Shown piece after piece: positions 3,858 to 16,392 of a DNA stretch of 32,000 nucleotides (within the stretch, counting starts at the first letter, position 1; each line of letters begins with the position of its first letter). This DNA is from Limnohabitans sp. 15K. GTDB taxonomy: Bacteria; Pseudomonadota; Gammaproteobacteria; Burkholderiales; Burkholderiaceae_C. The DNA lies in assembly GCF_002778285.1 (NCBI RefSeq), contig NZ_NESM01000001.1:1121934-1153933 (forward strand), read 5' to 3'. A program made the translations under genes and the position numbers. The notes under the pieces were generated by a model. That model saw nothing but the letters and a program-made list of their open reading frames with translations, searched no databases and was not told the DNA's origin.

Positions 3858-3878
3858 GTTCAGGTAGTGAGTAATTTT
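3858..3878 (+). repeat. Left terminal inverted repeat (IR-L), candidate attL
   Basis: GTTCAGGTAGTGAGTAATTTT read directly; its partner is at 16372-16392 on the opposite strand, with a single mismatch at position 7 (G vs C). Confidence 0.75.
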
Positions 3879-3893
3879 TGTGTTCATAAATTT

Positions 3894-5561
3894 CTATCCT
3901 CGACCGTCTTTTTTTTTGCAGACCAGAGAGACGGTGTCTGTTCCTGGAGTCACTTCGTATTCCCGAGCTTGCTGCCCATCTCGTACAACTTTGATGCCGT
4001 CATTGACGATGGGCAGATGCATTGTCAGCGTTAATTCGTGCTCTCGATTATCGCTTTCATAGCGTACATCGATCCGCTTTACCAAACCGCCGATGTACTC
4101 CTTCTTCTGCTCATCAGTCAAAACGTCCAGCGTCTCTACTTCGTCGCCAAACTCTTTCACCCAGTTCACCCACTTCCGTGATTCGTCTGTGCCAGCCAAT
4201 TCAAGCCGTGAATTAGCAAGCTCGGCTTCGATGTTACCTAGTGCTTCACGAATACGAACCAGCGTGACAGCAAAGCTGAGATCACTGACAGCACCAAGCA
4301 ATTTGTTCGCCTCAAGATTGCCGAGTGTTTCATTCATCTTCGAATGATCTTTCTGGAGTTTGCGAATTTTGGCTTGAAGCGCTTTGATCTCAGCATCAGT
4401 GCGGATCTTGATACCGTTCTCTTTGAGCACCCGATTTTTGACTTCTTCCTTCAGTGTGCTCGACTTCGCATGAAGTGATGTGACCAGCTCCCAGACCAAC
4501 TTATCAGTCTGGGGAATGTTCATGGCACGTGCAAACCCACAGCCCATGCCACGCTTCCACGGGGATTCTGATCCACCCTTCTCAACCCATTCACGCTCTT
4601 TGTTGGGACAGTAGTAAGAAGACTCAGCGCGGGACTTGATGATCCGACCACTGATGGGTCGACCACAATGCCCACAGAACATCAAATCACGCAAAAGATA
4701 GAAGTGTTTTGACGTTGCGTTTTTCTGAGACTGCCTCAGCACCTCGCTAGTACGCTTGTGCTGAGCCGCATTCCAAGTGATCTGGTCAATGATGCTTGGG
4801 CATTGAACTTCAATCGTCTGTCCAGACTTGCTGTCTGTATAGATGTAATGCCCAGAGTAGTGCGTATTTTTCAATAGCGCATTGATTGATCCAATCGTCC
4901 ACAAGCCTTTCTTGCGGCGTGGGCTGACACCATTGGAATCCAAGACTTGTTTGATGTACGTTGCGGCGCCACCTTTCACAATCTCTTGAAAGATACGCTT
5001 GACCCACTTGGCTTCTTCATCGACCACAACAAGTTTTCTGTTTTCGAGCTTGTAGCCGAATGGTGGAGGTCCGCCGTGCCAGCTGCCAGAACGAACACGG
5101 TTCATCTTGCCAAGCCGTGTTCGCTCAGCTCGTGTGACGTTGTCAAACTCAGCAACAGCATCCAGCAATTGCTTCAAAAACTTGTCTTGCGGGGATGACA
5201 GATCAAACTGCCCATCCTTGGTGTACAGCGTGACACCCTGCTTGTTGCACTCATACCGAAAGACAGAAGCGACTTGGTCGTTGCGTGACAAGCGAGACTG
5301 GTCATAAACCCACAGATGCTTGACCTGCCCTGCCTTCATCGCCACATAGAGCGCATTCAGTTCAGGACGATCAGCGATGTTTTCATGATGGGAGCTGCGA
5401 CCACCTTCGTTCCAAACCTTGAAGTCAAATCCAAGCTCTTTAGCTTTCTTGACCCCTAGGTCCCGCTGTGATTCAAGTGATGTGCCCTGCTCAGCCTGTG
5501 CGGTTGTAGACACACGGGTGTAGATGTGGAGCGTGTTATCTGCTGATGTTGCGCCTGTCAC
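3894..5561 (-). CDS. Large serine recombinase (integrase/transposase type), 555 aa, GTG start
   Basis: N-terminal resolvase catalytic motif IYTRVSTTAQ. Central recombinase domain (PPPFGYKL...WTIGSINALLKNTHYSGHY). Zinc-ribbon Cys cluster (CGHCGRPISG...YYCPNK...GCGF). A coiled-coil-like stretch follows (LQAKIRKLQKDHSKMNETLGNLEANKLL). Confidence 0.9.
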   Translation of the reverse strand: MTGATSADNTLHIYTRVSTTAQAEQGTSLESQRDLGVKKAKELGFDFKVWNEGGRSSHHENIADRPELNALYVAMKAGQVKHLWVYDQSRLSRNDQVASVFRYECNKQGVTLYTKDGQFDLSSPQDKFLKQLLDAVAEFDNVTRAERTRLGKMNRVRSGSWHGGPPPFGYKLENRKLVVVDEEAKWVKRIFQEIVKGGAATYIKQVLDSNGVSPRRKKGLWTIGSINALLKNTHYSGHYIYTDSKSGQTIEVQCPSIIDQITWNAAQHKRTSEVLRQSQKNATSKHFYLLRDLMFCGHCGRPISGRIIKSRAESSYYCPNKEREWVEKGGSESPWKRGMGCGFARAMNIPQTDKLVWELVTSLHAKSSTLKEEVKNRVLKENGIKIRTDAEIKALQAKIRKLQKDHSKMNETLGNLEANKLLGAVSDLSFAVTLVRIREALGNIEAELANSRLELAGTDESRKWVNWVKEFGDEVETLDVLTDEQKKEYIGGLVKRIDVRYESDNREHELTLTMHLPIVNDGIKVVRDGQQAREYEVTPGTDTVSLVCKKKDGRG

Positions 5562-5674
5562 GGAATGTCTCTCAATATTCTTTATTTTGCCTAAAAACTA
5601 AGCATATTCCCTTTGACATCAAATTCCTACACGTCATTGGAAAACACCAGCAAAATATGCCAATTTTGAATTAA

Positions 5675-5701
5675 TCAAGCGTCTAGTAACGGGACGCTTG
5701 A
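5675..5701 (+). repeat. Hairpin repeat copy A (9-bp arms, 9-nt spacer)
   Basis: TCAAGCGTC TAGTAACGG GACGCTTGA. The central 21 nt match copy B (12486-12512) at 19/21 in the same orientation. It lies 2 nt past the stop of the 5703-6605 gene. Confidence 0.65.
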
Positions 5702-5702
5702 A

Positions 5703-6605
5703 TCACCAGATCGCTCCACGCACATACCGCTGACGCAATCTGTTCCAGTTGATTTCGCTGATGCCAGGAGGACTCCATTTCCCTTCATCGACTGCTTTGT
5801 CCATCGCCTTCTTTTGTTCATTTGTCCATCGCTTGCGTGATTTGACAGCCTCATAAGACGGGAACTGACCAATTTCGGCATTAGCAATCAATGCTTCGGC
5901 TCGATTAGTCATACGAATGACAGCAACACGCATAACCCTCTCCTTGAGAATTCTGTCTTTCAGTGGCTCGCCTGCACGCCTCTTATGCAGAGGCGAAATC
6001 CCAAGTTCCGCACCGATGTCATACAGGTCCATCTTGATTGGCTTATCACCAGTTGATGGATGTGTCATTTCATAGTCAAGCATTGATCGCATGTGCCAGA
6101 CACGAACAGCCGATTCAAGAACTTTCATTCGGATGCCCTTGACCTTCAGCAATCGGAACTGAGCATCGCCTTTCCTGATCTTGCGATCCTCAATTTCACG
6201 AATGAGCTCTAAGAACTGACGTTTTAGCGTCTTCTCCGAAATGTTCGTCGGAATGCTTAGCAACATGCGTTCTGAATTCCGAAGATGCTCATGCAACGAC
6301 ATCTCATCCACACGTTCTATCTTCGGCGGTGTCATCTGCTCTTGAAATAGTGCGAATCCAGTGTCGATCCACCATCCAGCGAAGTCCTTTGAAAGGACAT
6401 CACCAAAAGCCTGCCAGACCTGTTTTAGATCTGGATCAAGCGTCTTTCCCTTCTGCTTGCACACCCACCAGTAATCCTTGCTACAGCGCAAAGCCTCAAA
6501 CCACCATCGGTAGGGACTTACAGCCGCCCGCTCAAGTATTTCGAAATGGCTACGGGCTGTAAAGCCACTTATGCCCTTAAAAAAGAGTGTATTTTTTTCG
6601 TTCAC
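5703..6605 (-). CDS. Hypothetical protein with a probable C-terminal HTH, 300 aa
   Basis: Long ORF, divergent from the 6729 operon. Trp-rich N-terminus (RWWFEALRCSKDYWWVC). The segment MDLYDIGAELGISPLHKRR...RVAVIRMTNRAEALIANAE looks HTH/sigma-region-4-like. No family recognised. Confidence 0.7.
   Translation of the reverse strand: MNEKNTLFFKGISGFTARSHFEILERAAVSPYRWWFEALRCSKDYWWVCKQKGKTLDPDLKQVWQAFGDVLSKDFAGWWIDTGFALFQEQMTPPKIERVDEMSLHEHLRNSERMLLSIPTNISEKTLKRQFLELIREIEDRKIRKGDAQFRLLKVKGIRMKVLESAVRVWHMRSMLDYEMTHPSTGDKPIKMDLYDIGAELGISPLHKRRAGEPLKDRILKERVMRVAVIRMTNRAEALIANAEIGQFPSYEAVKSRKRWTNEQKKAMDKAVDEGKWSPPGISEINWNRLRQRYVRGAIW
6384..6401. repeat. Palindrome family copy 1 (GTCCTTTGAAAGGACATC)
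   Basis: This 18-mer is identical to 12515-12532. The core GTCCTTT-G-AAAGGAC is a 7+1+7 palindrome. It lies inside the 5703-6605 CDS, where the minus strand encodes DVLSKD. Confidence 0.7.
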
Positions 6606-6728
6606 GGTTATCAGTTTAATTCATATTGATAATTTTATTTGATAGCGAAATACAGTTCATACATCGACAAGACGAAAGCAATTCAGCCCAAGTTTGATGT
6701 TGATACCGCTCAACTAAAGGAGATACCT

Positions 6729-7544
6729 ATGAGCAAAAAGAACGTCGCAGCCGCTGCTAAAAATTCCGCAGCAATTCCAACTCAGTCCACCGGCGCAAGC
6801 ATCAGCACCACGATGATGCGACGCATCAGCGATCTGGCGATTCGCCGCGAAGCGTGGGAGACCACTGAGTACAACCGCTCCAATCAAGCTCTTTATGGCG
6901 TGATTGCAGAGTGTCTCAACCTGTACCTCGATTTGACAAGCGGTACAGACATCAAATTGAAGAAGCAAGGGCTGGAAAACTTCATCAAGACGAAAGGGTA
7001 TGTTTTCAAAGAAAGCTCGCCACTTTCCTTGAAAGTCATCCGCTGTGTGTTCGGTGATCGTGACCGTCGCCGCCTGTCGACGTATCACACCGTCCTGCTT
7101 GCTGCAATTGCCGATAAATGGGCAGTGAGCGATGTTGCAAAAAATATTGCCGATTGCGGCGGCGTGCAGGAAATCTCCATGCGAAAGCCCGGTGGCATGT
7201 CTGCAAAAGACAAAGCAAATGCTGCTCGTGCCTCACTGATGAATCAGTCAATTGCTACGCTGAGCAGTGATGCAATTTTCAAGCAGTTCAACAAGGAACA
7301 TGAAGCAGAGACCGCTGTCGCAGTTATGACTCTAAACAGCGATGGTACTTACAGCGTTCACTGTGTAGTCCGAAGCGCAACCGCAGTCAATGCAGCACTG
7401 GCGGGGTATTTCTCCGCCAACAAAGAAGTCTTGGTCGGGCTTCAAGAGCAACAAAAAGCGCAAGCCGCCGAGGCTGAAAAAGCCCAATTAATTGCGAACG
7501 CGGTATCAGCCGCCAACGATGCACAGACGGAACTTGCCGCCTGA
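6729..7544 (+). CDS. Hypothetical protein, 271 aa, with an Ala/Gln-rich coiled-coil-like C-terminus
   Basis: ORF 6639-7544 trimmed to the ATG at 6729, which is preceded by AAGGAG (6718-6723). No family recognised. Confidence 0.7.
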   Translation: MSKKNVAAAAKNSAAIPTQSTGASISTTMMRRISDLAIRREAWETTEYNRSNQALYGVIAECLNLYLDLTSGTDIKLKKQGLENFIKTKGYVFKESSPLSLKVIRCVFGDRDRRRLSTYHTVLLAAIADKWAVSDVAKNIADCGGVQEISMRKPGGMSAKDKANAARASLMNQSIATLSSDAIFKQFNKEHEAETAVAVMTLNSDGTYSVHCVVRSATAVNAALAGYFSANKEVLVGLQEQQKAQAAEAEKAQLIANAVSAANDAQTELAA

Positions 7545-7598
7545 ACGAAATCGAGTGCGGGACCTTTCCCGCACTCACTAACCAGTAAAGGAATTCAA

Positions 7599-8273
7599 AT
7601 GATGAACGACAAAGAATTTTTGCCCATATCTCTTGATGAGATTGTGATTTCTGATGTCCTTTCAAAGGACATGTTGACGAAGATCGTCAACAAAGTGATC
7701 CCATTTCCCGCTTTTGGAAAATGCGGAATCATCCTTCACGGACCGTACGGAACCGGAAAGACAACGCTGGGGAAACTGATCCCCGATTTGATGGAGAAAG
7801 CGCGCGGCGGGTGCAATGCTCACTCCGATTTTTATCAATGTGCGCAGGGCATGAATGGCGTGACATTGGTAAGTCAAATTCAGACAGCGACTCAGTACGT
7901 CAGTCTGAATGGCAGCGGTCTTCACTATTCCATCTTGGATGAGGTGGACAACATGACCGTAGCTGCCCAAGCATCACTCAAGGCAATCATGACGGGACTG
8001 CACGGTATTTTCATCATGACCACAAACGACATCACGGCTGTGGACAAGGGGGTCGTGAACCGCAGTCACGTGATTCACATGATGGCAGCGAAACCGCATG
8101 ACTGGCTGCCATTGGTCAAGCGAGTGATTACAGCTTGCGGTGCACCTTTACCGCCTGATGCGTCATTGATTCCAGTGATCGGGGCGTGCAACGGGTCTGC
8201 CCGTGACATCTGTAGTGCCGCTGTCGAAGTTGCAATCCAGTCAATTCAAACAGGAGGCTCTAATGTGCTCTGA
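7599..8273 (+). CDS. Small AAA+ ATPase, clamp-loader (RFC small subunit / gp44)-like, 224 aa
   Basis: Walker A HGPYGTGKTTLG, Walker B ILDEVDNM followed by AAQASLKAIM (like the RFC DEAD..T..AQ.ALR box), then IFIMTTN and VNRSHVI (SRC-like position). Confidence 0.85.
   Translation: MMNDKEFLPISLDEIVISDVLSKDMLTKIVNKVIPFPAFGKCGIILHGPYGTGKTTLGKLIPDLMEKARGGCNAHSDFYQCAQGMNGVTLVSQIQTATQYVSLNGSGLHYSILDEVDNMTVAAQASLKAIMTGLHGIFIMTTNDITAVDKGVVNRSHVIHMMAAKPHDWLPLVKRVITACGAPLPPDASLIPVIGACNGSARDICSAAVEVAIQSIQTGGSNVL
7653..7673. repeat. Palindrome family copy 2 (perfect 19-bp palindrome ATGTCCTTTCAAAGGACAT plus flanks)
   Basis: The reverse complement of 7653-7673 is identical over 21 nt to 12512-12532 (CATGTCCTTTGAAAGGACATC). 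It lies inside the AAA+ CDS and encodes DVLSKD. Confidence 0.8.
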
Positions 8274-8622
8274 AGACGAACGCTTCGATCTGATTAGAAG
8301 CAAATTAGATGTCTGTCTTTACTGTGATCAAGAATACATTTCGCGTGAGTATTGGAGTATGAAGTCACTCATATTAGAGTATTGCACGCTTTTCTCACCG
8401 AAATCCGAAAATGATTTTGCAGCAAGCACTTGCCTTTGCATTATTGATCTTGCCCTGTTCCTTGATGTAGATGAGATCAATCCAACCTCATCAATTGAAC
8501 TAAGTCGCCTGCTCCGCATTGATGAAGAATTGAAGTTGTATTGTCAGAATCAATTTCTGAATAATCACCGAATTCCGATTGAAAAACTAAAAATTGCGAC
8601 AGATGCTTTAGCAATGATTTAG
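8263..8622 (+). CDS. Hypothetical protein, 119 aa
   Basis: ORF 8203-8622 trimmed to the ATG at 8263, which is preceded by AGGAGG (8252-8257). It overlaps the upstream stop by 11 nt, suggesting operon coupling. Confidence 0.6.
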   Translation: MCSEDERFDLIRSKLDVCLYCDQEYISREYWSMKSLILEYCTLFSPKSENDFAASTCLCIIDLALFLDVDEINPTSSIELSRLLRIDEELKLYCQNQFLNNHRIPIEKLKIATDALAMI

Positions 8623-8702
8623 CCAATGTTAGCAACACATCAGCCTGATAAAAATCCAGCCTTGTGCAGGAATGCCAGTCAATTCAACTTTGAGGTAAAA
8701 TT

Positions 8703-8897: not shown

Positions 8898-8904
8898 ACT
8901 AATT

Positions 8905-8927
8905 GCCAGCCTTGAGCTGGCTTTTTT
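8905..8927 (+). terminator. Rho-independent terminator between convergent genes
   Basis: GCCAGC CTTGA GCTGGC followed by TTTTTT. An A-rich run upstream means it could work in both directions. Confidence 0.7.
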
Positions 8928-8947: not shown

Positions 8948-9550
8948 TCACGCCAGTAATTCCACTGCCGAACGCATAAGCTTGGGATTGCTCTCAATGT
9001 ATTTCTGGGTGACTGCCATGCTGCGGTGTCCTGCCAAATCCATCAACACGCGAACCGATACGCCCATCTCACTGAGCTTTGTGATAAAAGTTCTTCTGGA
9101 GCTGTGGGATGAGCCGCCAGTGATACCAGCGCCCTTGTACAAGTAATGAAAATGCTGTGCTAATGTTGACGCTGTGAACCCGCGATTGGGGTTTTTCTGT
9201 GTCGTGAACAATGCACGGGTAGTGTCCGTCATGGTCACAGCCTTCAAGTCTTTCAACTTGAAGCGGGTCTGCAAGTAATTCTTAATTTCTTCCTGCGCTT
9301 TCGCAGACAAGATAACGGTCCTGCCCCGTGATCCCTTCGTCTGATCTGCCGACAGTCGAATTTCTTCAACGATCTCACCAGTCGGGGTGAGCACGTCACA
9401 CAGACGCAGTGCAGCAAGTTCGCCCACGCGCATTCCTGTTGCATTGAGCACGACGAACATGGCGCGATTGCGCGTGCTGTGTTTGCGACTTGCGATGTAC
9501 AGCAGGACTTTGCGAACCTCTTTTTCTGAGAGAACTTTTGCTTGGGACAT
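8948..9550 (-). CDS. Small tyrosine recombinase (catalytic domain only, FimB/FimE-sized), 200 aa
   Basis: TGMRVGELAALRLCDV (catalytic Arg region), HSSRRTFIT (HxxR box) and LAGHRSMAVTQKYI (His and the nucleophile Tyr). Confidence 0.85.
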   Translation of the reverse strand: MSQAKVLSEKEVRKVLLYIASRKHSTRNRAMFVVLNATGMRVGELAALRLCDVLTPTGEIVEEIRLSADQTKGSRGRTVILSAKAQEEIKNYLQTRFKLKDLKAVTMTDTTRALFTTQKNPNRGFTASTLAQHFHYLYKGAGITGGSSHSSRRTFITKLSEMGVSVRVLMDLAGHRSMAVTQKYIESNPKLMRSAVELLA

Positions 9551-9963: not shown

Positions 9964-10806
9964 GTGAAAAAATACCTACTGTTGCTCGCATCGTGTCTGA
10001 TTACAGCCACCAATGCACAAGAAGTCGTGAACTATGAGTACACAAATCACGAAGGAAAAGTTCAATCCGTTGAAGCAACTCTGCGAAAGCCAACAGGTGC
10101 ATCCAATAACAAAGCAATCGTGATTCTTCATCATGCTGGTGGATGGTCAGAAGGAACGACCAGTCAATACGCAGAGATGTTCTCTGCCAATGGATATACG
10201 ACACTTGAACCTCGCATGTTCAACATGCGCTCACAGATGAAAAACAGCGCTGAGCACCTGTCGCAAGCTATGGGCGGGTTGACTTATTTGGCAGCTCAAC
10301 CTGGCGTTAACAAAGACAAGATTTCATTGATGGGGTTGTCTTTTGGCAGCTGGATTGCTGCTTATGCAGGCACAGAATGGGCAAGTCAAAAATTCACTGA
10401 TGGCAAATTGAAGTACAACAAGATTGCCCCACTGTATGCGGTCTGCTGGCTTCTCGAACGAGGTGCCAAGAAAGAACTGGGCTCGTTGCAAAATAAGTTT
10501 TATCCCGTCGACATGTATGACAAATGGACGCAGGTTCCATTGAAATTCTTTGCTGGGTCGGAAGACAATTACGATGACAAAGATCCGAAAACTTGTCAGA
10601 ACTTCATTGACGTAATTCCAGATGCAACCCAACGTTCTCTATCTTCTGTGAACGTGTACAAAGCGACTCATGGGTGGGACCAGAAGACCGCCACCTTTTT
10701 CGAAAAAGGTGCTTGCAAAGGTAAGGGCTGCAACAACACCAATCAAGCAAATCCTGAAGTCACTGCAAAAGTGAAAGAGGATTTGCTCAAATTCATCAAC
10801 GAATGA
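9964..10806 (+). CDS. Secreted alpha/beta hydrolase, dienelactone-hydrolase-like, 280 aa, GTG start
   Basis: GGAG lies 7 nt before the GTG. Signal peptide MKKYLLLLASCLITATNAQ. VILHHAGGW, nucleophile elbow GLSFGSW (GxSxG), and a C-terminal ATHGWD His. Confidence 0.8.
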   Translation: MKKYLLLLASCLITATNAQEVVNYEYTNHEGKVQSVEATLRKPTGASNNKAIVILHHAGGWSEGTTSQYAEMFSANGYTTLEPRMFNMRSQMKNSAEHLSQAMGGLTYLAAQPGVNKDKISLMGLSFGSWIAAYAGTEWASQKFTDGKLKYNKIAPLYAVCWLLERGAKKELGSLQNKFYPVDMYDKWTQVPLKFFAGSEDNYDDKDPKTCQNFIDVIPDATQRSLSSVNVYKATHGWDQKTATFFEKGACKGKGCNNTNQANPEVTAKVKEDLLKFINE

Positions 10807-10880
10807 TTTTCCGTCTTCCTCATACAACGGAGTCACATCAAGGCTAGGAATGAAATGGGCGTGGGTTCAAAGTTCAATTC

Positions 10881-11240
10881 ATGAACACGAACCCACACCT
10901 CGAATTTGAACTGGCGCAATTCACTGGCACAGAAAAGCTGTACCGATTGACCACACGCCATTTGTTGACTGATGGCACCATGTACCTCGCTGAACATGCG
11001 AAGTGCTATTGGCTGATGATTGCTGTGGCATCACATCTAATTGGGAAGATCGATGACCACTTCGCAGTTGCCAAGCTAAGTGTTGTGGGCAATGGTGCCG
11101 TGCTCACACTCGGTGATGGAAACGTAAATGTCTTCGCCAAGCAATCCATTGAATTCACAGATTTCCCATTGCCCGAAGTGAAGCTGTATTGCTGCTTTGA
11201 TGGGGATCACTGGATGATCATGCTTCCACGTGAATACTGA
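10881..11240 (+). CDS. Small conserved hypothetical protein, 119 aa (possibly the plasmid/ICE-borne DUF6876-type family)
   Basis: The N-terminal LAQFTGTEKLYRL...DGTMYLAEHAKCYWLMIAVASH pattern resembles a family I recall from plasmids and ICEs. The family number is from memory only. Confidence 0.65.
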   Translation: MNTNPHLEFELAQFTGTEKLYRLTTRHLLTDGTMYLAEHAKCYWLMIAVASHLIGKIDDHFAVAKLSVVGNGAVLTLGDGNVNVFAKQSIEFTDFPLPEVKLYCCFDGDHWMIMLPREY

Positions 11241-12020
11241 AATCCCAGACCATGTCATTTCTATTGACATGATTCACATGTCCTGTCACTGACAGCGAAC
11301 CTTCGGTTCACTAAGTGCTTTCGCCACTCATTTCGCTTCGCTCATTCGTATCGCTCAGCACTTCAGTTCGGATTGATTTGATGGGAAATATTCAGATCAC
11401 ATGAAGTGGTCTTTTGGACTTCTGAATTCATCTCTGTACTTGAGCCATAACCACCCTTCTAAAGCGAAGGGGCGGTTACTTTCGTTTTGTCCGTCGCCAC
11501 GTGACAACCAGTTGGATTCACAAGGGATGCTCAATGAGCATTGTCTCTACACGGCAATTCGTGCGTTTCAATGTGAATATGTTTATGGGCATTTTTCGTC
11601 CGCTCTTGGCTCTGCTCCTTACCGTTACCAACAGCGATTTTTAAAGCATCTCTCAGGTGTTTTTGATGCTATGGCGGACTTTGATCAAGTTGCTCTTCTT
11701 GTTCAGCTTGTCACCAAGCCGATTACCGTTTCGATGTGAGAAATGTTCCGATGATTCATCAGTCATTTAAGGCGTCCTTGCGGGGATAGTCTCACAAAGC
11801 GTGTGCTGAACATCACACGATCTACCGTCACACCATCAATAAGAACGGATTGTCGGCACACTTTGAAGCGGTGCTTGCTTGTCATTCAGTTTTGTCATCT
11901 TTATTTATGCCAATCCAGCCATAACCAAATATTTTCTTGACGAAACCAAACGGCACGGACTAGGAAAGAAACGGACACGGCAATAGGCTCAATCTCACTC
12001 ATCAACACAAGGAGATTTCA

Positions 12021-12467
12021 ATGAGTACGATTCTTTCGAGTCTGAAATTGGTCAACGCAAAGCGGGTGAATTCGATTGACCCTGTTGTCTTTCGTCGGAA
12101 CAAACTGAATGAAAAATTGAAGGTTCAGATCGCTATGGCACAGGCAATGAACAAAGGCGAGAAATTCACTGTCAAGCGCATGCGGAATGTGCGTGACGAT
12201 GTGACTGGTTTGACTGCAGTGGTTGAGGTCAGCAAGCGACTCAAGGCTTGGTGGTTCACGAACAATGACACCAAGAAGGTTGCCGTTCAAATCTTCTATG
12301 GCAACAAGGTCATCGATCTAGCGAAGGGTAAGAATGCCGTGGAAGTTGCGAACTGCGATGAACTGATCGCTGTGCTGTCGAAGTTGCAAGAGGCTGTGCT
12401 TGATGGATCGCTAGATGCTCAAATCGAACAGGCAGCGGATTCGGTGAAGGCGCGCTTTGCGAAGTAA
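12021..12467 (+). CDS. Conserved hypothetical protein, 148 aa
   Basis: Strong RBS AAGGAG 7 nt before the ATG. The sequence (SSLKLVNAKR...FRRNKL...WWF...AVLDGSLDAQIEQAA) resembles island-borne hypothetical proteins I recall from proteobacteria. No function known. Confidence 0.75.
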   Translation: MSTILSSLKLVNAKRVNSIDPVVFRRNKLNEKLKVQIAMAQAMNKGEKFTVKRMRNVRDDVTGLTAVVEVSKRLKAWWFTNNDTKKVAVQIFYGNKVIDLAKGKNAVEVANCDELIAVLSKLQEAVLDGSLDAQIEQAADSVKARFAK

Positions 12468-12485
12468 GCATGGCACTGGCAGATC

Positions 12486-12512
12486 GTGAGCGTCCAGTGA
12501 CGGGACGCTCAC
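12486..12512 (+). repeat. Hairpin repeat copy B (10-bp arms, 7-nt spacer)
   Basis: GTGAGCGTCC AGTGACG GGACGCTCAC, a perfect stem, 19 nt after the stop of the 12021-12467 gene. The core AGCGTC-y-AGT-r-ACGGGACGCT is shared with copy A. Confidence 0.7.
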
Positions 12513-12532
12513 ATGTCCTTTGAAAGGACATC
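12512..12532. repeat. Palindrome family copy 3 (perfect 19-bp palindrome ATGTCCTTTGAAAGGACAT plus flanks), intergenic
   Basis: Directly abuts hairpin B and is followed by a third dyad, CCAGC TAGC GCTGG, at 12535-12548. Confidence 0.8.
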
Positions 12533-12579
12533 TTCCAGCTAGCGCTGGCACCAGACTTCATGCAGTCATAAATACATGC

Positions 12580-12930
12580 ATGAAGATCAACGAATTCACC
12601 ACCAATCTCAATACCTACGTTGCCACTGTGCGTGTCGTCTTGCGCAATGGCACGACCATGGCGAAAACGCACGTCATCGCTGATGGCACCAATCAAGCTC
12701 GAATGTTGCTCATGCACTTGTATGGCGAGGGCAATGTCTTTTCAGTTCAAGCTCTTATGGATGAGGAAGTGACAGAGGGCACGAAGACGCTCACGGCATC
12801 TGAGTTGCAGGTCAAGTCACTGACTGACCGTGCCAAGCAACTCAATCAACAAGCGAAAGAGACGAAGGCACGGCAGTCACTAGAGAAGGCTCGCAAACGG
12901 GCGCAAGATATATCAGCCAATGTCTTGTAA
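12580..12930 (+). CDS. Hypothetical protein, about 116 aa
   Basis: ORF 12520-12930 begins with a TTG in the centre of the palindrome, so I prefer the in-frame ATG at 12580 (MKINEFTT...). No clear RBS. Lys/Gln-rich helical C-terminus. Confidence 0.5.
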   Translation: MKINEFTTNLNTYVATVRVVLRNGTTMAKTHVIADGTNQARMLLMHLYGEGNVFSVQALMDEEVTEGTKTLTASELQVKSLTDRAKQLNQQAKETKARQSLEKARKRAQDISANVL

Positions 12931-12941
12931 AAATTTCATGC

Positions 12942-13274
12942 TTATTTAAATCGAAATTTCTCCACACCTTTGTTAGTCGTAACACTAGCCTCCAGAACAT
13001 TGCAAATCCGACCTTTTGTACCAATCATGAACGATAGTGTTTGACCATATTTTAATTTTTTAGGCAACGCTATTTGTTTGTAATATTCGCAATTACCTCT
13101 ATTAAGTTCTAAATTGTGAATTTCGATTTCATCTGTTGTTGATTGAACATCAGCATACTGCACATATTCTCGCCATGTACTTGACCATTTTTGGTTGATT
13201 GATATCGACACAGATGATGCAATCGATGGCATTGATATTGCCAACCCGATAGCAATCAGTAATTTTCTTTTCAT
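12942..13274 (-). CDS. Small secreted hypothetical protein, about 110 aa
   Basis: ORF 12942-13403 trimmed to the internal ATG at 13274, which starts a typical signal peptide MKRKLLIAIGLAISMPSIASS. AT-rich codons. Confidence 0.55.
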   Translation of the reverse strand: MKRKLLIAIGLAISMPSIASSVSISINQKWSSTWREYVQYADVQSTTDEIEIHNLELNRGNCEYYKQIALPKKLKYGQTLSFMIGTKGRICNVLEASVTTNKGVEKFRFK

Positions 13275-13412
13275 TTTTACAACGGTGAGTTTTTTGTGAA
13301 TTGTTGCAGTCCAACAAGAAATTATCAAAAATATCGTCTGCAAAAATTGCATGCAATAACTGTAGGAATTTTTCAATCGTGGGAATAGGCTCATTGCTGT
13401 CAATCACAGTCA

Positions 13413-13808
13413 ATGAGTCAAGAAGTCTGTCAGAGCCGTTTCATCTTTTCCCAGTGCGTGCGTCACATTCGCACGTGGGAAGATGCGCATCTGCCTCTGA
13501 GTCAGAGTCGCATTGCTTTTGATCTGTTCATGCTCATTGCTCAGAGCAGCCAAATTGAACAGCCTATGACGCTAAAGGAATTGTTCAACTCACTCAAGTA
13601 CAGTGAACGTGGCGTTCGTTACGTGTTGGATCAGTTCGTTGACGGAGGCTGGTGCGAAATTGTTGGAAGCGAGAAAGATAAGCGTTTTCGTCTCGTTGTT
13701 GCATCTCAACGACTGACAGATAAGCTGGCAGAATATGAGCAGGTTGTGCTCAGCAATTACCGGTCATCACATCTAACACTATCAGTTAGCGCTGGCTCCA
13801 GCGTCTGA
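13413..13808 (+). CDS. Winged-helix (MarR/ArsR-like) DNA-binding protein, 131 aa
   Basis: MTLKELFNSLKYSERGVRYVLDQFVDGGWCEIVGSEKDKRFRLVVASQRL fits helix-turn-helix plus a beta-wing (DKR..RL). Divergent from the 13274 gene. Confidence 0.65.
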   Translation: MSQEVCQSRFIFSQCVRHIRTWEDAHLPLSQSRIAFDLFMLIAQSSQIEQPMTLKELFNSLKYSERGVRYVLDQFVDGGWCEIVGSEKDKRFRLVVASQRLTDKLAEYEQVVLSNYRSSHLTLSVSAGSSV

Positions 13809-13909
13809 TCCAGCACAGAGCTATCAATCCACTCCACTTACATCTGACATCAACCCCACAAAAGAGTCGCTCAAAACTGGCTTTCGTAGTTCCGAGACAG
13901 ATTGACTGG

Positions 13910-13936
13910 TTCAGCGTCCTATCACTGCACGCTTGA
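13910..13936 (-). repeat. Degenerate, inverted copy C of the hairpin repeat
   Basis: The reverse complement TCAAGCGTGCAGTGATAGGACGCTGAA matches copy A at 20/27. Only a 5-bp stem (AGCGT/ACGCT) remains. It overlaps the GACTGGTTCAG word at 13904-13914. Confidence 0.4.
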
Positions 13937-14269
13937 TCGTCATAGAGCATAAATCAACTGTTTGTACTGACTCAAGCATGCAACGATGCTTTCAAAAAGC
14001 CTCTTCATGGCTTTCAGATTAAAAGACAAAAAGTTTTTCAAGCTAGACAAACATGTCTCTTGCAAACAATAAATACTGACCGGCTTTCGTTCGTCTTTTG
14101 GACCTTAGGCAAGAAGATGCTCAGTCCTACGACCGGTAAGTAAAGTCTCTCGTTGACAAAGCCAAACGACTCAATCAGTAATCGTGTATTAACAAAGGGC
14201 TGATGGAGTTAAAAGCGCGAAAGAGAGACGGAATTCCGCTGCTGCTAAAAATTAATTATGAAATAAAAT

Positions 14270-14890
14270 TCACCCTGTAGCGTCAGCTCCATCACTCAAA
14301 TGCATTTTCTCGCCAAGATAATATAAGCCCCACGCAGTAACGGTAAGAAGTTGAACAAAAAATAGAATATAAATAGATGTTGCCAAAGCACTAAACCAGG
14401 GAATCAAAGCAGGTATAAGTGCAGCTTTGATGGCTGGCGCTAATGTAAGCGCTAATGCCGCACCAATTGTCAACAAAAAACTAAGCATTGTCAGATAGGC
14501 AAACATTACCGCCAAAAATAATCTACGATTTAATTCCAACTTATCAGTTAAAGCCCCTTCAATAAGAAATCTCATTTTCGGAGGATTGCCTGACATTGGT
14601 CTAAGCATCTCTTTGCCACCAAATGTTGCGACAGCCGCTAGAGCCGCCGTATAAAATCCAGGAAGATTTTGAACGAAACTTTGTATTTTGCTTATAAACC
14701 CACTACCACTCCAGATATCAGTAGGATTGGGCTTAATATATCCAAGATAGTCTAACAAACTAGGCAAAAGCCATGCGCCCCCTGTCACGACAGCCACTGC
14801 AATTGGAAAACCCCAGTTCACCCAAAAATGCACTCTATCTGGATGACTTATAGTCAAATAAGAAAAGGGTCTAAGCAACACTTTAAACAC
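14270..14890 (-). CDS. Multi-pass membrane protein, 206 aa, GTG start (third gene of the AT-rich operon)
   Basis: GGAG-N6-GTG lies 12 nt after the upstream stop. Hydrophobic spans by eye: WGFPIAVAVVTGGAWLLPSLL, LPGFYTAALAAVATFGG, LFLAVMFAYLTMLSFLLTIGAALALTLAP, and IPALIPWFSALATSIYILFFVQLLTVTAWGLYYL (probably two helices). No family recognised. Confidence 0.75.
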   Translation of the reverse strand: MFKVLLRPFSYLTISHPDRVHFWVNWGFPIAVAVVTGGAWLLPSLLDYLGYIKPNPTDIWSGSGFISKIQSFVQNLPGFYTAALAAVATFGGKEMLRPMSGNPPKMRFLIEGALTDKLELNRRLFLAVMFAYLTMLSFLLTIGAALALTLAPAIKAALIPALIPWFSALATSIYILFFVQLLTVTAWGLYYLGEKMHLSDGADATG

Positions 14891-14902
14891 AGCAACTCCA
14901 AT

Positions 14903-16081
14903 TCAATCTATTAAATCTTTCATCTTCAAAATAATTTCTTCGGAAATTTTAGTTTGATGGTCAAAATGTGGATTGTCTAACTCAATAATTTCTGATCGCG
15001 TAAAAGCATCTTCAAGTCGATGTGCATTAAATAATTTTTTCTTAATTTGCACATCATCCACATCTCGTTCTTTATATTCAATCCGTATAGTATCCGCATC
15101 AAACTTCCTATTATCAAATGCAGTCTTTAGCAATTTTTTAAGGTAGGGTATATCAGGCTTAACACTTTTCAAATTAACATGCATTTCCATTCTATCTATC
15201 TCCACCGGCACAGTTGAATCAAACGATTGATGCCCTTTATCAATTAAATCGACACCAACAATTCTGCCTTTGTTAATTATTTCAGTTAGAGCCCCATTAG
15301 GCAATGCTGAGAATGAAAAAGCATGTTTAACTTTATATTTTTTCTTTTTACCATCATCATCTAAAATATTTGTTGGCAGAGGAATTTCATCAAACCCAAC
15401 AAGACCACCCGACTTTTTCACCTGTTTATAAACATTATTTAACAAAGATACAATTTTTTGAGGATAAATGCCAGCCCCTGTTGTCATCAACATTTTCCCA
15501 GAAATTGATGATTCATTGAATTTAATCAGCACGTGCGCTGAGACTTCAATATCTTCATCAACTGCTTTATTTCCAAGACGTCTTGTCTTTGAGCCTCTTC
15601 TCCTATAAGCGACATCTGAACGATCAGGATCAGGTTTATTAAGTAATAGCACAAGCTCCCGCGCAGTTTTATCTGACGTCACCTGAGTTACTTCGATCGG
15701 AGTTTTTCCGCACTGTATTTCAATTCCAGACTTTATATATGGAATTATTTTTTCAACAATTTTCCACAGACTAACTTGAGGTGGAATTGGTATTCTTTCA
15801 TCAAGAGAATTTGTACTAACTTGAAGCTCGAAGAAATTGACAGTTCTATTATTGATTTTCACGATATTCCCTTTTTGACCTATGGAGCTTAGACCATTCC
15901 AAACCCTTATTGGAATTACATCATTTACTGCATAGGTTGCCAAGTCCCATATGTGCATTTCTCGTTTTCTGGACTTTATAAGTCTTAGCCGTGAAACTAC
16001 ATCACTCTTTGAGTTGTCTTTGCGAAAGACAAACTGATCGTCTCGTAACAGGTCGCTGATGTCACTGTAATTGGGCATCAT
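14903..16081 (-). CDS. Orphan soluble protein, 392 aa (second gene of the AT-rich operon)
   Basis: Long uninterrupted ORF in about 33 percent G+C DNA, which is very unlikely by chance. Its ATG overlaps the upstream stop (ATGA). Lys/Asp/Ile-rich. I recognise no Walker, DDE, HxK or HNH motif. Confidence 0.8.
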   Translation of the reverse strand: MMPNYSDISDLLRDDQFVFRKDNSKSDVVSRLRLIKSRKREMHIWDLATYAVNDVIPIRVWNGLSSIGQKGNIVKINNRTVNFFELQVSTNSLDERIPIPPQVSLWKIVEKIIPYIKSGIEIQCGKTPIEVTQVTSDKTARELVLLLNKPDPDRSDVAYRRRGSKTRRLGNKAVDEDIEVSAHVLIKFNESSISGKMLMTTGAGIYPQKIVSLLNNVYKQVKKSGGLVGFDEIPLPTNILDDDGKKKKYKVKHAFSFSALPNGALTEIINKGRIVGVDLIDKGHQSFDSTVPVEIDRMEMHVNLKSVKPDIPYLKKLLKTAFDNRKFDADTIRIEYKERDVDDVQIKKKLFNAHRLEDAFTRSEIIELDNPHFDHQTKISEEIILKMKDLID

Positions 16082-16383
16082 TCAAACCACAAGTCCACCA
16101 ACTCTGGTGCCACCTTCAATGTGAGTCTTTCTTGCCTGAGCTTGCCTTTCTTGTAGATAGAAAACACATGCTCAGCACCCAGCAAGCAGCCGTTGACTGA
16201 GCGTGTACCTGACTTCGTCAAAAGCCTTGCAATTGCCTCAAACGTCAGTTCTTCACGCTCACGTAACAAAAAGACTCTGTCAAACAGCCGTTGCTGACAG
16301 TTTGAGTAGTGTTTCTTGTAGATTTCCTTGCTTTTCAGTTTGACGACCATGACCACTCTTGTCTGATCGTCAAAATTACTCAC
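16078..16383 (-). CDS. Small HTH protein resembling the DNA-binding recombinase-domain segment of serine recombinases, 101 aa (or 90 aa from the ATG at 16350)
   Basis: LTFEAIARLLTKSGTRSVNGCLLGAEHVFSIYKKGKL parallels ATYIKQVLDSNGVSPRRKKGLWTIGSINALLKN in the element's own recombinase. The GTG at 16383 lies inside IR-R, 8 nt after the glmS stop, with no SD. The ATG at 16350 has a weak GAGTGG upstream. Confidence 0.6.
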   Translation of the reverse strand: MSNFDDQTRVVMVVKLKSKEIYKKHYSNCQQRLFDRVFLLREREELTFEAIARLLTKSGTRSVNGCLLGAEHVFSIYKKGKLRQERLTLKVAPELVDLWFE

Positions 16384-16392
16384 TAGCTGAAC
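16372..16392 (-). repeat. Right terminal inverted repeat (IR-R), candidate attR
   Basis: The minus strand reads GTTCAGCTAGTGAGTAATTTT. Its first G (16392) is the last base of the glmS TAG stop codon. Confidence 0.75.

What the first reader, a model, noticed from the sequence alone, without database searches (positions are those of the whole stretch)
3858..16392. Serine-recombinase element with 21-bp terminal inverted repeats inserted at the base after the glmS coding sequence
The plus strand at 3858-3878 reads GTTCAGGTAGTGAGTAATTTT. The minus strand at 16392-16372 reads GTTCAGCTAGTGAGTAATTTT, a 20/21 match. Both read from outside to inside, and they enclose exactly the AT-richer DNA. The large serine recombinase gene ends 15 nt inside IR-L. 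This geometry is expected for a serine-integrase element: attP and attB are each dyad-symmetric, so the P and P' half-sites become inverted repeats at the two ends. Joining the ends predicts a perfect attP palindrome, AAAATTACTCACTA-S-TAGTGAGTAATTTT. It also predicts an empty glmS-sense attB, ...GTGGAATAGTTCAG-S-CTGAACCAGTCCGTCACTG... The single mismatch lies between the GTTCAG and TAGTGAG blocks, where crossover would be expected. The glmS 3' end is the classic Tn7 site, yet this element uses unrelated machinery, so this looks like convergent use of the same safe harbour.
Basis: partly seen in the sequence, partly recalled or inferred. Interest (0 to 1): 0.7.

Follow-up and report, generated by a model that had tools for sequence, protein, structure and literature searches.

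The report
Serine-integrase island inside the glmS tail
A 12.6-kb mobile island carrying a large serine integrase sits inside the last codons of the essential gene glmS in a Limnohabitans genome and brings its own copy of those codons so the gene stays intact; it belongs to a widespread family of such islands that I found no description of, but the recombination chemistry is ordinary.

Summary
The two 21-mers are at the stated coordinates, match 20/21 in inverted orientation, and are far beyond chance. A 555-aa large serine recombinase (LSR) gene ends 15 nt inside the left one.

The repeats are the outer parts of the P and P' arms of an LSR attP, but the crossover is not at the G/C mismatch and the insertion is not after the glmS coding sequence.
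- Just outside the left repeat lies a second glmS 3' end (QSVTVE*, 3837-3857).
- The arms' dyad axis, and polymorphisms across about 25 related loci, place strand exchange on the AC of the Thr codon, 7 coding nt before the native stop (plus-strand GT at 3847-3848 and 16402-16403).
- The element (3849-16401) supplies replacement codons ...C GTG GAA TAG.
- Uninterrupted glmS ends in close Limnohabitans relatives lack the predicted TTCAG-S-CTGAAC palindrome.
- A metagenome contig carries exactly my predicted attP (LSR, P arm, glmS-tail mimic, P' arm) and is a circular permutation of a sibling element.

LSR homologues in 33 of 36 genome loci (Beta-, Gamma- and Alphaproteobacteria) abut a glmS tail. 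Closest analogue: SCCmec at rlmH. Shared address: Tn7.

The parts
3837..3846 (-). B' remnant: the native glmS 3' end displaced by the insertion (minus strand T GTT GAG TAA). With 3847-3857 it reads QSVTVE*.
   Evidence: The stop codon at this position varies among hosts (TAA/TGA/TAG), as expected for host DNA. In L047/L048 the same stub overlaps the start of the host SET gene, as at the uninterrupted site L037.
3847..3848 (-). Distal copy of the inferred crossover dinucleotide (AC on the minus strand, GT on the plus strand), in attR.
   Evidence: Dyad axis of the reconstructed attP in 10/10 loci. Polymorphism bounds at -1 and +3.
3849..3878 (+). P arm of attP (30 nt).
   Evidence: 33/34 identical to the left half of the attP in contig L045.
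3894..5561 (-). Large serine recombinase (555 aa), the inferred integrase.
   Evidence: Pfam PF00239, PF07508, PF13408. Invariant R16/S18/D87/R90/R93. The AF2 model matches SPbeta, PhiC31, Bxb1 and LI integrases at E 5e-23 to 3e-13. In 33/36 homologue loci the 3' end of the gene lies within 200 nt of a glmS tail.
5703..6605 (-). Conserved core gene of unknown function (300 aa), next to the integrase gene.
   Evidence: Weak homologues (21-28% identity) in 11 related loci. No Pfam, PHROG or NCBIfam hit.
6639..7544 (+). Core gene of unknown function (301 aa).
   Evidence: Homologues in L001, L002, L020 and L045. No family hit.
7599..8273 (+). Clamp-loader-like AAA+ ATPase (224 aa), core gene.
   Evidence: Pfam AAA. 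PHROG clamp loader, 5e-14. NCBIfam RFC/DnaX hits well below cut-off.
8948..9550 (-). Short tyrosine-recombinase-like protein (200 aa, catalytic domain only). Conserved in the window's clade only. Not the family-wide integrase.
   Evidence: Pfam Phage_integrase 1e-26. Present in 9 of 36 loci.
9964..11240 (+). Variable cargo: a dienelactone-hydrolase-like protein (9964-10806) and a DUF6876 protein (10881-11240).
   Evidence: Absent from most sibling elements.
12021..13808 (+). Core block: DUF6641 (12021-12467), a 136-aa ORF (12520-12930) and a 131-aa ORF (13413-13808). A variable minus-strand ORF lies at 12942-13403.
14270..16081 (-). Cargo: two-gene candidate anti-phage system PDC-M53 (A = 14903-16081, B = 14270-14890). 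Lowest GC in the element (0.373).
   Evidence: PADLOC PDC-M53A 6.8e-26 and PDC-M53B 3.7e-49. GC. Absent from sibling elements.
16078..16383 (-). Conserved 101-aa ORF that starts (GTG) inside the P' arm, 8 nt after the glmS stop, and reads inward. A candidate directionality factor or regulator, on position alone.
   Evidence: Homologues in 8 loci of both layouts, always at the arm opposite the integrase gene, and next to attP in L045. No family or fold assignment.
16372..16401 (-).
   Evidence: 33/34 identical to the right half of the attP in L045.
16402..16403 (-). glmS-proximal copy of the crossover dinucleotide AC, in attL.
16404..18254 (-). Host-derived part of glmS. Its last ~30 nt (16404-16433) form the B arm of attB. 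The complete ORF is 16392-18254.
   Evidence: 97-99% amino-acid identity to Limnohabitans GlmS.

Best explanation
What it is. A 12,555-bp integrative element is integrated inside the 3' end of glmS in a Limnohabitans chromosome. Its unique DNA spans 3849-16401. It was integrated by its own large serine recombinase (3894-5561).

The attP. It is about 62 bp long: a 30-nt P arm, the central dinucleotide AC, and a 30-nt P' arm. The inner 9-10 nt on each side copy the glmS tail (..CAG TCC GTC AC C GTG GAA TAG).

The attB. It is the conserved coding sequence for the GlmS C-terminus (...AAG TCN GTN AC N GTN GAR stop).

The reaction (inferred). The integrase cuts both sites at the AC of the Thr codon and exchanges strands. 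glmS then ends in the element-borne codons (attL = B-AC-P'). The native last 7 coding nt plus stop are stranded 12.5 kb away (attR = P-AC-B').

Consequences. GlmS keeps its ...SVTVE C-terminus. Only the B arm and about 10 bp of B' are conserved host sequence, and attL reproduces both. An occupied site can therefore probably be targeted again, giving tandem arrays (inferred).

Contents. The element carries conserved core genes and variable cargo, here a PDC-M53 candidate defence pair.

Shown: the repeats, the duplicated tail, integrase identity and fold, the family-wide link to glmS, uninterrupted glmS ends in relatives, a natural attP junction, tandem arrays.

Inferred: the exact cleavage at AC, which protein domains read which bases, present-day activity, the excision factor, and how the element moves between cells.
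For: 1. Duplicated glmS tail. AKSVTVE* at 16392-16415 and NQSVTVE* at 3837-3860.
2. Dyad axis. In 10/10 loci with both junctions, the symmetry axis of the reconstructed attP falls in the middle of the AC. In the window the arms match 24/30 about that axis (by eye).
3. Polymorphism bounds.
- The base left of AC (-1) varies as host DNA does in attL (C/G/A). In attR it is fixed by element clade: C in the window's clade, almost always T elsewhere.
- The base right of AC (+3) is C or A in attL, in the natural attP (L045) and in the internal junction of the L034 tandem.
- In attR, +3 varies freely (T, G, T, G, G, C, A), even among elements with near-identical P arms.
- Within the window alone, the exchange is bounded to GTCAC.
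4. Stop codons. The attL stop is TAG in 6 of 7 clade members. The attR stop varies TAA/TGA/TAG with the host.
5. Uninterrupted sites. L037-39 (GlmS 99% identical) and L044 (Limnohabitans sp. Bal53) run from ...GTNACNGTGGAR-stop straight into host genes.
6. Natural attP.
- A scan of metagenome contigs with my predicted core found L045: integrase gene, then AAAAATTACTCACTACCTGAACCAGTCCGTCACCGTGGAGTAGTTCAGCTAGTGAGTAATTTT, then the 101-aa gene.
- There is no glmS on that contig.
- Its two ends map 176 bp apart on the L001 element, so it is an excised circle or a head-to-tail tandem.
7. Family link. 33/36 genome loci with an integrase homologue (down to 34-44% identity; Beta-, Gamma- and Alphaproteobacteria) have a glmS-tail motif within 200 nt of the integrase gene's 3' end. 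About 6e-4 per locus is my estimate of the chance expectation. The other 3 are cut by a contig end or decayed.
8. Arms co-vary with integrase clade: TAGTGAGTAA, CAAGTGAGTAA, TAGGGGGTAA, AACGGGGGT.
9. Integrase fold. Full-length matches to the SPbeta, PhiC31, Bxb1 and LI integrases, with a predicted coiled-coil hairpin at residues 389-460.
10. Tandem arrays with P-AC-P' internal junctions in L034, L040 and L010.
Against: - No empty site with the window's own left flank (GTAACGGGCCTG...) was found. The uninterrupted sites come from relatives with different downstream DNA.
- The crossover position is inferred from comparative sequence, not from cleavage data.
- L045 could be a collapsed tandem rather than a free circle. 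It has no terminal overlap and 3.4x coverage.
- Half-sites of 30 nt are longer than the ~25 nt typical of characterised serine-integrase attP sites (my recollection).
- A B' half-site with only ~10 conserved bp is unusual for this enzyme class.
- No directionality factor was identified.
- Nothing shows that the window's copy is still active.
Confidence: 0.85

Rival explanations
1. The element ends at the outer bases of the 21-bp repeats. It is inserted just after the glmS stop. Crossover is at the single G/C mismatch. attP is the palindrome AAAATTACTCACTA-S-TAGTGAGTAATTTT. The empty attB carries GTTCAG-S-CTGAAC.
For: The 21-bp repeats are real. The single mismatch sits between two perfectly matching blocks.
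Against: - A second glmS tail lies outside IR-L.
- Uninterrupted glmS ends in relatives have no TTCAG/CTGAAC after the stop.
- The natural attP (L045) keeps both GTTCAG blocks, with 20 bp of glmS-tail mimic between them.
- The same G/C asymmetry is present inside that attP.
- The dyad axis is at AC in 10/10 loci.
- A single central base is not how serine recombinases cut; they make a 2-nt stagger (established knowledge).
Confidence: 0.03
2. The short tyrosine recombinase (8948-9550), not the serine recombinase, integrates the element. It would use the duplicated glmS tail as an identity core, as tRNA-targeting islands do.
For: Imperfect direct repeats of a gene's 3' end flanking an island are the classic signature of tyrosine-integrase islands. 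A Phage_integrase-family gene is present and conserved in the window's clade.
Against: - The protein is only 200 aa, a catalytic domain without the N-terminal DNA-binding domain.
- It is absent from 27 of 36 loci that still show the same glmS-tail junctions.
- It lies mid-element, whereas the serine recombinase gene always abuts an arm.
- The longest uninterrupted identity between attL and attR around the exchange point is 5 bp in the window (GTCAC) and 2 bp in L001. Tyrosine recombinases need a 6-8-bp identical overlap (established knowledge).
- The 30-nt dyad-symmetric arms are typical of serine-integrase att sites.
Confidence: 0.04
3. The architecture is as described, but the window's copy is a fixed, no-longer-mobile island. 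It would have been domesticated for its defence cargo or be decaying, so the repeats are relics.
For: Decayed relatives exist: a truncated integrase gene in L034 and a P'-arm relic without an element body in L040. No directionality factor was identified. No circle junction is available for this exact element.
Against: - The integrase ORF is full length with all catalytic residues that are invariant in the family.
- Both arms are 33/34 identical to the halves of a natural attP.
- All core genes are intact.
- A sibling element about 83% identical in DNA exists as a circle or tandem.
Confidence: 0.15
4. A Tn7-like transposon sitting at attTn7.
For: The location at the glmS 3' end is the classic Tn7 site.
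Against: - No element ORF matched any TnsA/B/C/D family.
- The insertion is inside the coding sequence rather than ~25 bp downstream of it.
- There is no 5-bp target duplication.
- The ends are a single 30-nt inverted arm each, not arrays of transposase-binding repeats.
Confidence: 0.01

Closest known systems
SCC / SCCmec elements of staphylococci (large serine recombinases CcrAB or CcrC; target is the 3' end of rlmH/orfX)
   Same: From my own knowledge, for SCC:
- A large serine recombinase integrates a cargo island inside the last codons of a conserved housekeeping gene without inactivating it.
- The island is flanked by short direct repeats containing the target sequence and has terminal inverted repeats.
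- The regenerated target allows tandem or composite arrays.

All of these features are seen here.
   Different: - Different phylum, target gene and recombinase lineage.
- NCBIfam CcrB/CcrA/CcrC scores are 77, 71 and 49 bits against cut-offs of 900, 700 and 900.
- One recombinase here in the window's layout, not a CcrA+CcrB pair.
Tn7 and Tn7-like transposons, including CRISPR-associated ones, homing to attTn7 through TnsD/TniQ
   Same: Both use the extremely conserved coding sequence of the GlmS C-terminus as a genome address that is safe and present in nearly every bacterium. Both carry variable cargo, including defence genes.
   Different: - Tn7 uses a transposase with TnsC and TnsD, inserts about 25 bp downstream of the stop, and makes a 5-bp duplication (my knowledge).
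- This element uses conservative site-specific recombination, crosses over inside the coding sequence, and repairs the gene with a built-in copy of the tail.
- No Tns genes are present.
Phage large serine integrases with solved att complexes (SPbeta SprA, PhiC31, Bxb1, Listeria LI/A118)
   Same: - Same domain order and fold: catalytic domain, recombinase domain, zinc ribbon with a coiled-coil insert.
- Foldseek E 5e-23 to 3e-13 over ~575 aligned columns.
- Short dyad-symmetric attP around a non-palindromic central dinucleotide.
   Different: - 14-20% identity only; sequence search of the PDB gives E no better than 1e-6.
- No homologue at E<=1e-30 in 50,697 phage or 72,556 plasmid records.
- The elements are 1.3-12.6 kb with no virion genes detected.
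- attB is conserved on one side only.
Clusters of distantly related large serine recombinases that share one target gene (Durrant et al. 2022, PMC10083194)
   Same: The general principle that divergent recombinase clades keep targeting the same conserved gene. That paper's example is a Mg-chelatase/ATP-dependent-protease gene.
   Different: glmS does not occur in that paper's main text. Its supplementary tables were not checked.
Flexible genomic island fGI-3 ('tycheposon') bordering glmS in freshwater and marine Methylophilaceae (PMC10872708)
   Same: A variable island adjacent to glmS in planktonic Betaproteobacteria. One of my loci (L009) is from a Methylophilaceae isolate and has an integrase homologue whose ORF ends on a glmS-tail stub.
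   Different: That island is attributed to tRNA-Met plus XerD and is described as ending at glmS. No serine recombinase or glmS-tail duplication is reported.

Membership tests
Large serine recombinase / serine integrase elements | N-terminal resolvase-type catalytic domain with the nucleophilic serine and conserved Arg/Asp residues | tested here: met
   PF00239 1.5e-21 over residues 13-160. R16, S18, D87, R90 and R93 are invariant in 26 homologues.
Large serine recombinase / serine integrase elements | C-terminal recombinase domain plus zinc-ribbon domain carrying a coiled-coil insert | tested here: met
   PF07508 1.4e-14. PF13408 scores 24.2 bits, just under its 25.3 cut-off. Invariant Cys296/299/318/341. 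The AF2 model has a helical hairpin at 389-421/427-460. Full-length Foldseek matches to the SPbeta, PhiC31 and Bxb1 integrases.
Large serine recombinase / serine integrase elements | Short attP made of two inverted half-sites around a central dinucleotide, so that the integrated element has inverted P/P' ends | tested here: met
   30-nt arms, 24/30 symmetric about AC in the window. The axis is at AC in 10/10 loci. A natural attP is seen in L045.
Large serine recombinase / serine integrase elements | Strand exchange at a 2-bp, non-palindromic dinucleotide that is identical in attP and attB; no target-site duplication | tested here: inconclusive
   Comparative polymorphisms bound the exchange to AC. 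AC is invariant in every site seen. Cleavage itself was not observed.
Large serine recombinase / serine integrase elements | Directionality controlled by a recombination directionality factor | not testable with these tools
   Only a positional candidate, the 101-aa ORF 16078-16383. It has no family hit, and the single-sequence model has pLDDT 41.7.
SCC elements (CcrAB/CcrC) | Recombinase is a member of the CcrA, CcrB or CcrC families | tested here: not met
   NCBIfam scores of 71-77 and 49 bits against cut-offs of 700-900.
SCC elements (CcrAB/CcrC) | Integration in the 3' end of rlmH (orfX) | tested here: not met
   The target is glmS.
Tn7-like transposons | TnsA/TnsB/TnsC core with a TnsD/TniQ target selector | tested here: not met
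   None of the element's ORFs matches these families in Pfam, PHROGs or NCBIfam.
Tn7-like transposons | Insertion downstream of the glmS stop with a 5-bp target duplication | tested here: not met
   The junction lies 7 coding nt before the native stop. The flanking repeats are an imperfect copy of the glmS tail, not a 5-bp duplication.
Tyrosine-integrase genomic islands | Full-length tyrosine integrase at an element end, and an identical overlap of at least 6-8 bp shared by attL and attR | tested here: not met
   The tyrosine recombinase is 200 aa, catalytic domain only, mid-element, and absent from 27/36 loci. Identity around the exchange point is 5 bp (window) or 2 bp (L001).

The most novel reading that the evidence does not exclude
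These integrases may need only the glmS-coding half-site plus about 10 bp of tail. The element's built-in tail copy would then do two jobs: keep GlmS functional, and regenerate a working attB in attL. That would make glmS an endlessly re-usable stacking site. It would also make this family natural 'landing-pad-free' integrases for any bacterium with the conserved glmS tail, a recombinase counterpart of Tn7. The element body has also flipped relative to the asymmetric core between clades, showing that the arms and the core evolve as separable modules.
Probability: 0.35. Interest if true: 0.65.

Novelty: new member of a known kind. Interest (0 to 1): 0.5.

Why it matters
The GlmS C-terminal coding sequence is one of the most conserved addresses in bacterial genomes, and Tn7 made it the standard neutral integration site. 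This window shows a second, unrelated machinery using the same address.

The family is broad: integrases down to about 40% identity, three classes of Proteobacteria, and elements of 1.3-12.6 kb. The integrases cut inside the gene and mend it with a copy of the tail carried in attP.

Practical value. The attP (about 62 bp) and attB (the glmS tail) are now defined precisely enough to test. If active, these enzymes could insert DNA into many Gram-negative bacteria without a pre-placed landing pad.

Biological value. The result explains a variable hotspot downstream of glmS in freshwater Betaproteobacteria and shows defence-gene cargo arriving there by a route other than Tn7.

Tried and rejected
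- Exact-sequence look-ups of the window's GlmS and integrase found nothing, so the source genome is not in that collection.
- No isogenic empty site. Relatives share DNA with the window up to the glmS stop, then again only from the SET gene (617-622) or the amidase gene (2252). Nothing matched the left flank 2253-3836. The single metagenome scan went on the attP test instead.
The one IMG/VR locus with a homologue (L046) is simply an integrated copy abutting glmS.
- Promoter and terminator scans across 3500-18500 gave counts at shuffle level. They say nothing either way about read-through from glmS into the element.
- Rfam found nothing in the element.
- The 101-aa ORF has no Pfam, PHROG, NCBIfam or PADLOC hit. 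Its single-sequence AF2 model is unusable (pLDDT 41.7). My impression that it resembles the integrase's recombinase domain is not supported (BLASTP E 7.5).
- The integrase has no relatives at E<=1e-30 in the phage or plasmid collections, so no route of transfer between cells could be proposed from those.
- Seven full-text literature searches and two papers read turned up no description of serine-recombinase elements targeting glmS. This covers only the held open-access library and no supplementary tables.
- Rejected after testing: the tyrosine-recombinase and Tn7-like explanations (see the rival explanations).

Full report
**1. The observation**

Plus strand 3858-3878 reads GTTCAGGTAGTGAGTAATTTT. 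The reverse complement of 16372-16392 reads GTTCAGCTAGTGAGTAATTTT, a 20/21 match.
- These are the only two matches in the window at up to 3 mismatches. None of 100 shuffles gave any.
- About 0.002 such pairs are expected by chance in 16.5 kb.
- The repeat finder ranks this pair first and extends it to 27 nt at 89% (3852-3878 / 16372-16398).
- ORF 3894-5561(-) is a large serine recombinase (Pfam Resolvase, Recombinase, Zn_ribbon_recom). Its stop codon is 15 nt inside IR-L.
- ORF 16392-18254(-) is glmS. It is 97-99% identical to Limnohabitans GlmS proteins.
- The enclosed DNA has GC 0.451, against 0.60-0.62 on the glmS side and 0.52 in the 1.6 kb to the left.

One correction: base 16392 is the last base of the glmS stop codon, so IR-R overlaps the stop by one base.

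**2.

Immediately outside IR-L, the minus strand of 3837-3860 reads AAC CAG TCC GTC ACT GTT GAG TAA, which translates to NQSVTVE*. That is a second copy of the GlmS C-terminus. The gene itself ends AKSVTVE* at 16392-16415. The element is therefore flanked by imperfect direct repeats of the glmS tail, lying outside the inverted repeats.

**3. Related loci**

The integrase has over a thousand homologues, 120 of them at 54% identity or more, nearly all from environmental metagenome assemblies and MAGs.

A profile of 26 homologues retrieved 36 loci from reference genomes. They come from:
- Betaproteobacteria: Limnohabitans, Polaromonas, Polynucleobacter, Methylophilaceae, Oxalobacteraceae, Rhodocyclaceae
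- Gammaproteobacteria: Marinomonas, Lysobacter
- Alphaproteobacteria: Rhodospirillaceae, Magnetovibrio

In 33 of the 36, a glmS-tail motif ([GA]TN ACN GTN GAR stop) lies within 200 nt of the integrase gene's 3' end. The other three are cut by a contig end or carry a decayed gene. I estimate the chance expectation at about 6e-4 per locus.

Two gene layouts occur:
- **Layout A**, as in the window. glmS and the integrase gene are on the same strand, with the integrase gene at the far end.
- **Layout B** (L010-12, L016, L017, L036 and others). The integrase gene, preceded by a small resolvase gene, converges on glmS and abuts it.

In both layouts the junction next to glmS reads ...GTN AC N GTN GAR stop + arm. 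The far junction reads arm + ..TCN GTN AC N GTN GAR stop + unrelated host DNA.

**4. Where the crossover is**

*Symmetry.* I rebuilt attP as (left half of the far junction) + AC + (right half of the glmS-side junction). In 10 of 10 loci this gives two arms whose symmetry axis falls in the middle of the AC of the Thr codon. In the window the arms match 24/30 about that axis.

*Polymorphism.* The bases on either side of AC behave differently at the two junctions.

| Position | At the glmS-side junction (attL) | At the far junction (attR) |
|---|---|---|
| -1 (third base of the Val codon) | Varies as host DNA does (C/G/A) | Fixed by element clade: C in the window's clade, almost always T elsewhere |
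| +3 (third base of the Thr codon) | C or A; also C in the free attP (L045) and in the internal junction of the L034 tandem | Varies freely (T, G, T, G, G, C, A), even among elements with near-identical arms |

- The stop codon supplied next to glmS is TAG in 6 of 7 clade members. The stranded stop varies TAA/TGA/TAG with the host.
- Within the window alone, the exchange is bounded to GTCAC. Across loci it is bounded to AC.

In window coordinates the two copies of the dinucleotide are plus-strand GT at 3847-3848 and 16402-16403. The element proper is 3849-16401, giving a circle of 12,555 bp. A 2-bp non-palindromic exchange point at the dyad centre is what serine recombinases use (established knowledge).

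**5. Uninterrupted sites**

Contigs encoding GlmS 99% identical to the window's (L037-39) end ...GTG ACG GTG GAA TGA and run directly into the SET-domain gene. In the window that gene lies at 188-643.

Limnohabitans sp. Bal53 (L044, 97%) ends ...GTC ACC GTG GAG TGA followed by unrelated host DNA.

In L047 and L048, sibling elements lie in a host where the stranded tail stub overlaps the start of the SET gene. The SET gene also directly abuts and overlaps the glmS end at the uninterrupted site L037, so the stub is native host DNA.

**6. A natural attP**

I scanned metagenome contigs with the core my model predicts (CTGAACCANTCNGTNACNGTNGARTAGTTCAG). There was one hit, L045, a 10,032-bp contig.
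- It reads: integrase gene (88% identical), then AAAAATTACTCACTACCTGAACCAGTCCGTCACCGTGGAGTAGTTCAGCTAGTGAGTAATTTT, then a homologue of the 101-aa gene. There is no glmS on the contig.
- Its two ends map 176 bp apart on the L001 element. It is therefore a circular permutation of the element: an excised circle or a head-to-tail tandem.
- The window's two junction halves are each 33/34 identical to the halves of this attP.

**7. The enzyme**

An AlphaFold model built on the 26-sequence alignment (pLDDT 77) shows the catalytic domain, the recombinase domain, a zinc ribbon, and a long helical hairpin at residues 389-460.

Foldseek against the PDB returns full-length matches:

| Integrase | E-value |
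|---|---|
| SPbeta | 5e-23 |
| PhiC31 | 2e-17 |
| Bxb1 | 2e-14 |
| Listeria LI | 3e-13 |

- Sequence identity to these is only 14-20%.
- NCBIfam XisF, CcrA, CcrB and CcrC scores are far below their cut-offs.
- No homologue exists at E<=1e-30 in the phage or plasmid collections.
- Arm sequences co-vary with integrase clade, as expected if the integrase reads them.

**8. Rivals**

- *Short tyrosine recombinase (8948-9550).* It has only the catalytic domain, lies mid-element, and is missing from 27 of 36 loci with identical junction architecture. Identity around the exchange point (5 bp in the window, 2 bp in L001) is too short for tyrosine-type exchange.
- *Tn7-like transposition.* Excluded by gene content and junction structure.
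- *Relic rather than active element.* Whether the window's copy is still mobile cannot be told from sequence. Its integrase, arms and core genes are intact.

**9. Contents of the element**

Core genes shared with sibling elements:
- the integrase
- two unknown ~300-aa proteins
- a clamp-loader-like AAA+ ATPase
- the short tyrosine recombinase
- DUF6641
- two small ORFs
- a 101-aa ORF that starts inside the P' arm, 8 nt after the glmS stop

The 101-aa gene always sits at the arm opposite the integrase gene, in both layouts. Together with a small resolvase and the integrase it makes up the 3.1-kb element of L017. That makes it a positional candidate for a directionality factor or regulator, but no function could be assigned.

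Variable cargo here:
- a hydrolase and a DUF6876 protein
- at the lowest GC (0.373), a two-gene PADLOC candidate defence system, PDC-M53

Elements in the family range from 1.3 to 12.6 kb. L019 is 1,757 bp and carries the integrase alone. No virion or conjugation genes were detected, so how the elements move between cells is unknown.

**10. Tandem arrays**

L034, L010 and L040 carry two elements in series, with internal arm-AC-arm junctions. In L040, a 1.5-kb element with different arms precedes a relic of the window's arm type.

Host DNA beyond the stranded stop codon shows no conservation. Only the glmS-coding half-site and about 10 bp of tail can be specified by the host, and the glmS-side junction reproduces both. 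My inference is that an occupied site remains a target, at least for integrases with different arm specificity.

**11. Comparison with what is known**

- **SCCmec.** Mechanistically this is a standard serine-integrase element. The closest functional analogue is SCCmec: a serine recombinase, the 3' end of the housekeeping gene rlmH kept intact, flanking target repeats, and composite arrays. The recombinase here is not a Ccr protein.
- **Tn7.** The address is the one Tn7 uses, reached by unrelated machinery and cut at a different place.
- **Durrant et al. 2022.** The principle that divergent serine recombinases share a target gene is described there, without glmS in the main text.
- **Methylophilaceae island.** A glmS-bordered flexible island in Methylophilaceae has been attributed to a tRNA-Met/XerD element.

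I found no description of glmS-targeting serine-recombinase elements in the searchable library. That library is incomplete.

**12. Verdict**

This is a new member, in fact a broad undescribed family, of a known kind. Interest is moderate. The mechanism is ordinary, but the target, the precisely defined att sites and the parallel with Tn7 make it directly testable and potentially useful.

Noticed in passing
window 2275-3846: The stretch between the stranded glmS tail and the amidase gene has intermediate GC (0.52). It encodes a 452-aa lipoprotein-like protein with collagen repeats, three DUF7151 domains and a BclA C-terminal domain. It has no counterpart in any related Limnohabitans locus, so it may be older strain-specific or acquired DNA at the same hotspot.
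   Followed up: partly
window 6384-6398, 7656-7670, 12515-12529: The 15-nt palindrome GTCCTTTSAAAGGAC occurs three times inside the element (0 expected) and twice in the L002 sibling element. It lies at or near gene boundaries. It could be an operator for an element-encoded regulator.
   Followed up: partly
window 5678-5698, 12489-12509, 16037-16057 (weaker copy at 13913-13936): A repeated hairpin motif AGCGTCYAGTRACGGGACGCT (7-bp stem, 7-nt loop) sits near the 3' ends of element genes. At 12486-12534 it lies directly beside the palindrome above.
   Followed up: no
window 16372-16394: The glmS stop (TAG, supplied by the element) is followed after 8 nt by the GTG start of the 101-aa ORF. That ORF, PDC-M53A and PDC-M53B all run in the same direction as glmS. 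The consensus scan found no terminator-like site between the glmS stop and the 101-aa ORF. Integration may place this operon under glmS read-through transcription.
   Followed up: partly
loci L010-L012, L016, L017, L036 versus the window, L001-L003: Between clades the whole element body is flipped relative to the asymmetric att core. The integrase gene is at the glmS-distal arm in one layout and at the glmS-proximal arm in the other. The 101-aa gene is always at the opposite arm.
   Followed up: partly
L007, L009, L014, L019, L022, L024 (3' end of the integrase gene): In six loci the integrase ORF reads through the P arm and the crossover and ends on the native glmS stop codon in the glmS frame. 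The integrase C-terminus is then ...VTVE, and its last codons are swapped on integration and excision.
   Followed up: no
L019 243-2000; L017 1559-4666: Minimal family members. One is a 1,757-bp element carrying only the integrase gene. The other is a 3,107-bp element with a 101-aa-gene homologue, a small resolvase and the integrase.
   Followed up: partly
L040/L041/L043 (e.g. L040 7852-9400): In a Limnohabitans relative (GlmS 98% identical), glmS is followed by a 1.5-kb element with unrelated arms (GTTTCATATAACAT). Next comes a second glmS-tail stub joined to a decayed P' arm of the window's type (TTCAGCGAGTGAG). This is evidence of serial occupation and decay at this site.
   Followed up: partly
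L047 7470-7480, L048 8170-8180, L037 4195-4198: In some Limnohabitans hosts the downstream SET-domain gene starts inside the last codons of glmS, 2 nt after the crossover dinucleotide. The integrase target therefore overlaps two host genes, and attR preserves the SET start.
   Followed up: partly
window 22991-23052 (+): Rfam match to the Betaproteobacteria toxic small RNA (RF02278; 57.2 bits against a gathering score of 50) in the host flank. Unrelated to the element.
   Followed up: no
window 8948-9550: A 200-aa tyrosine recombinase made of the catalytic domain only is conserved (63-92% identity) in sibling elements of the window's clade. Its role is unknown; it might resolve multimers or invert DNA.
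   Followed up: partly
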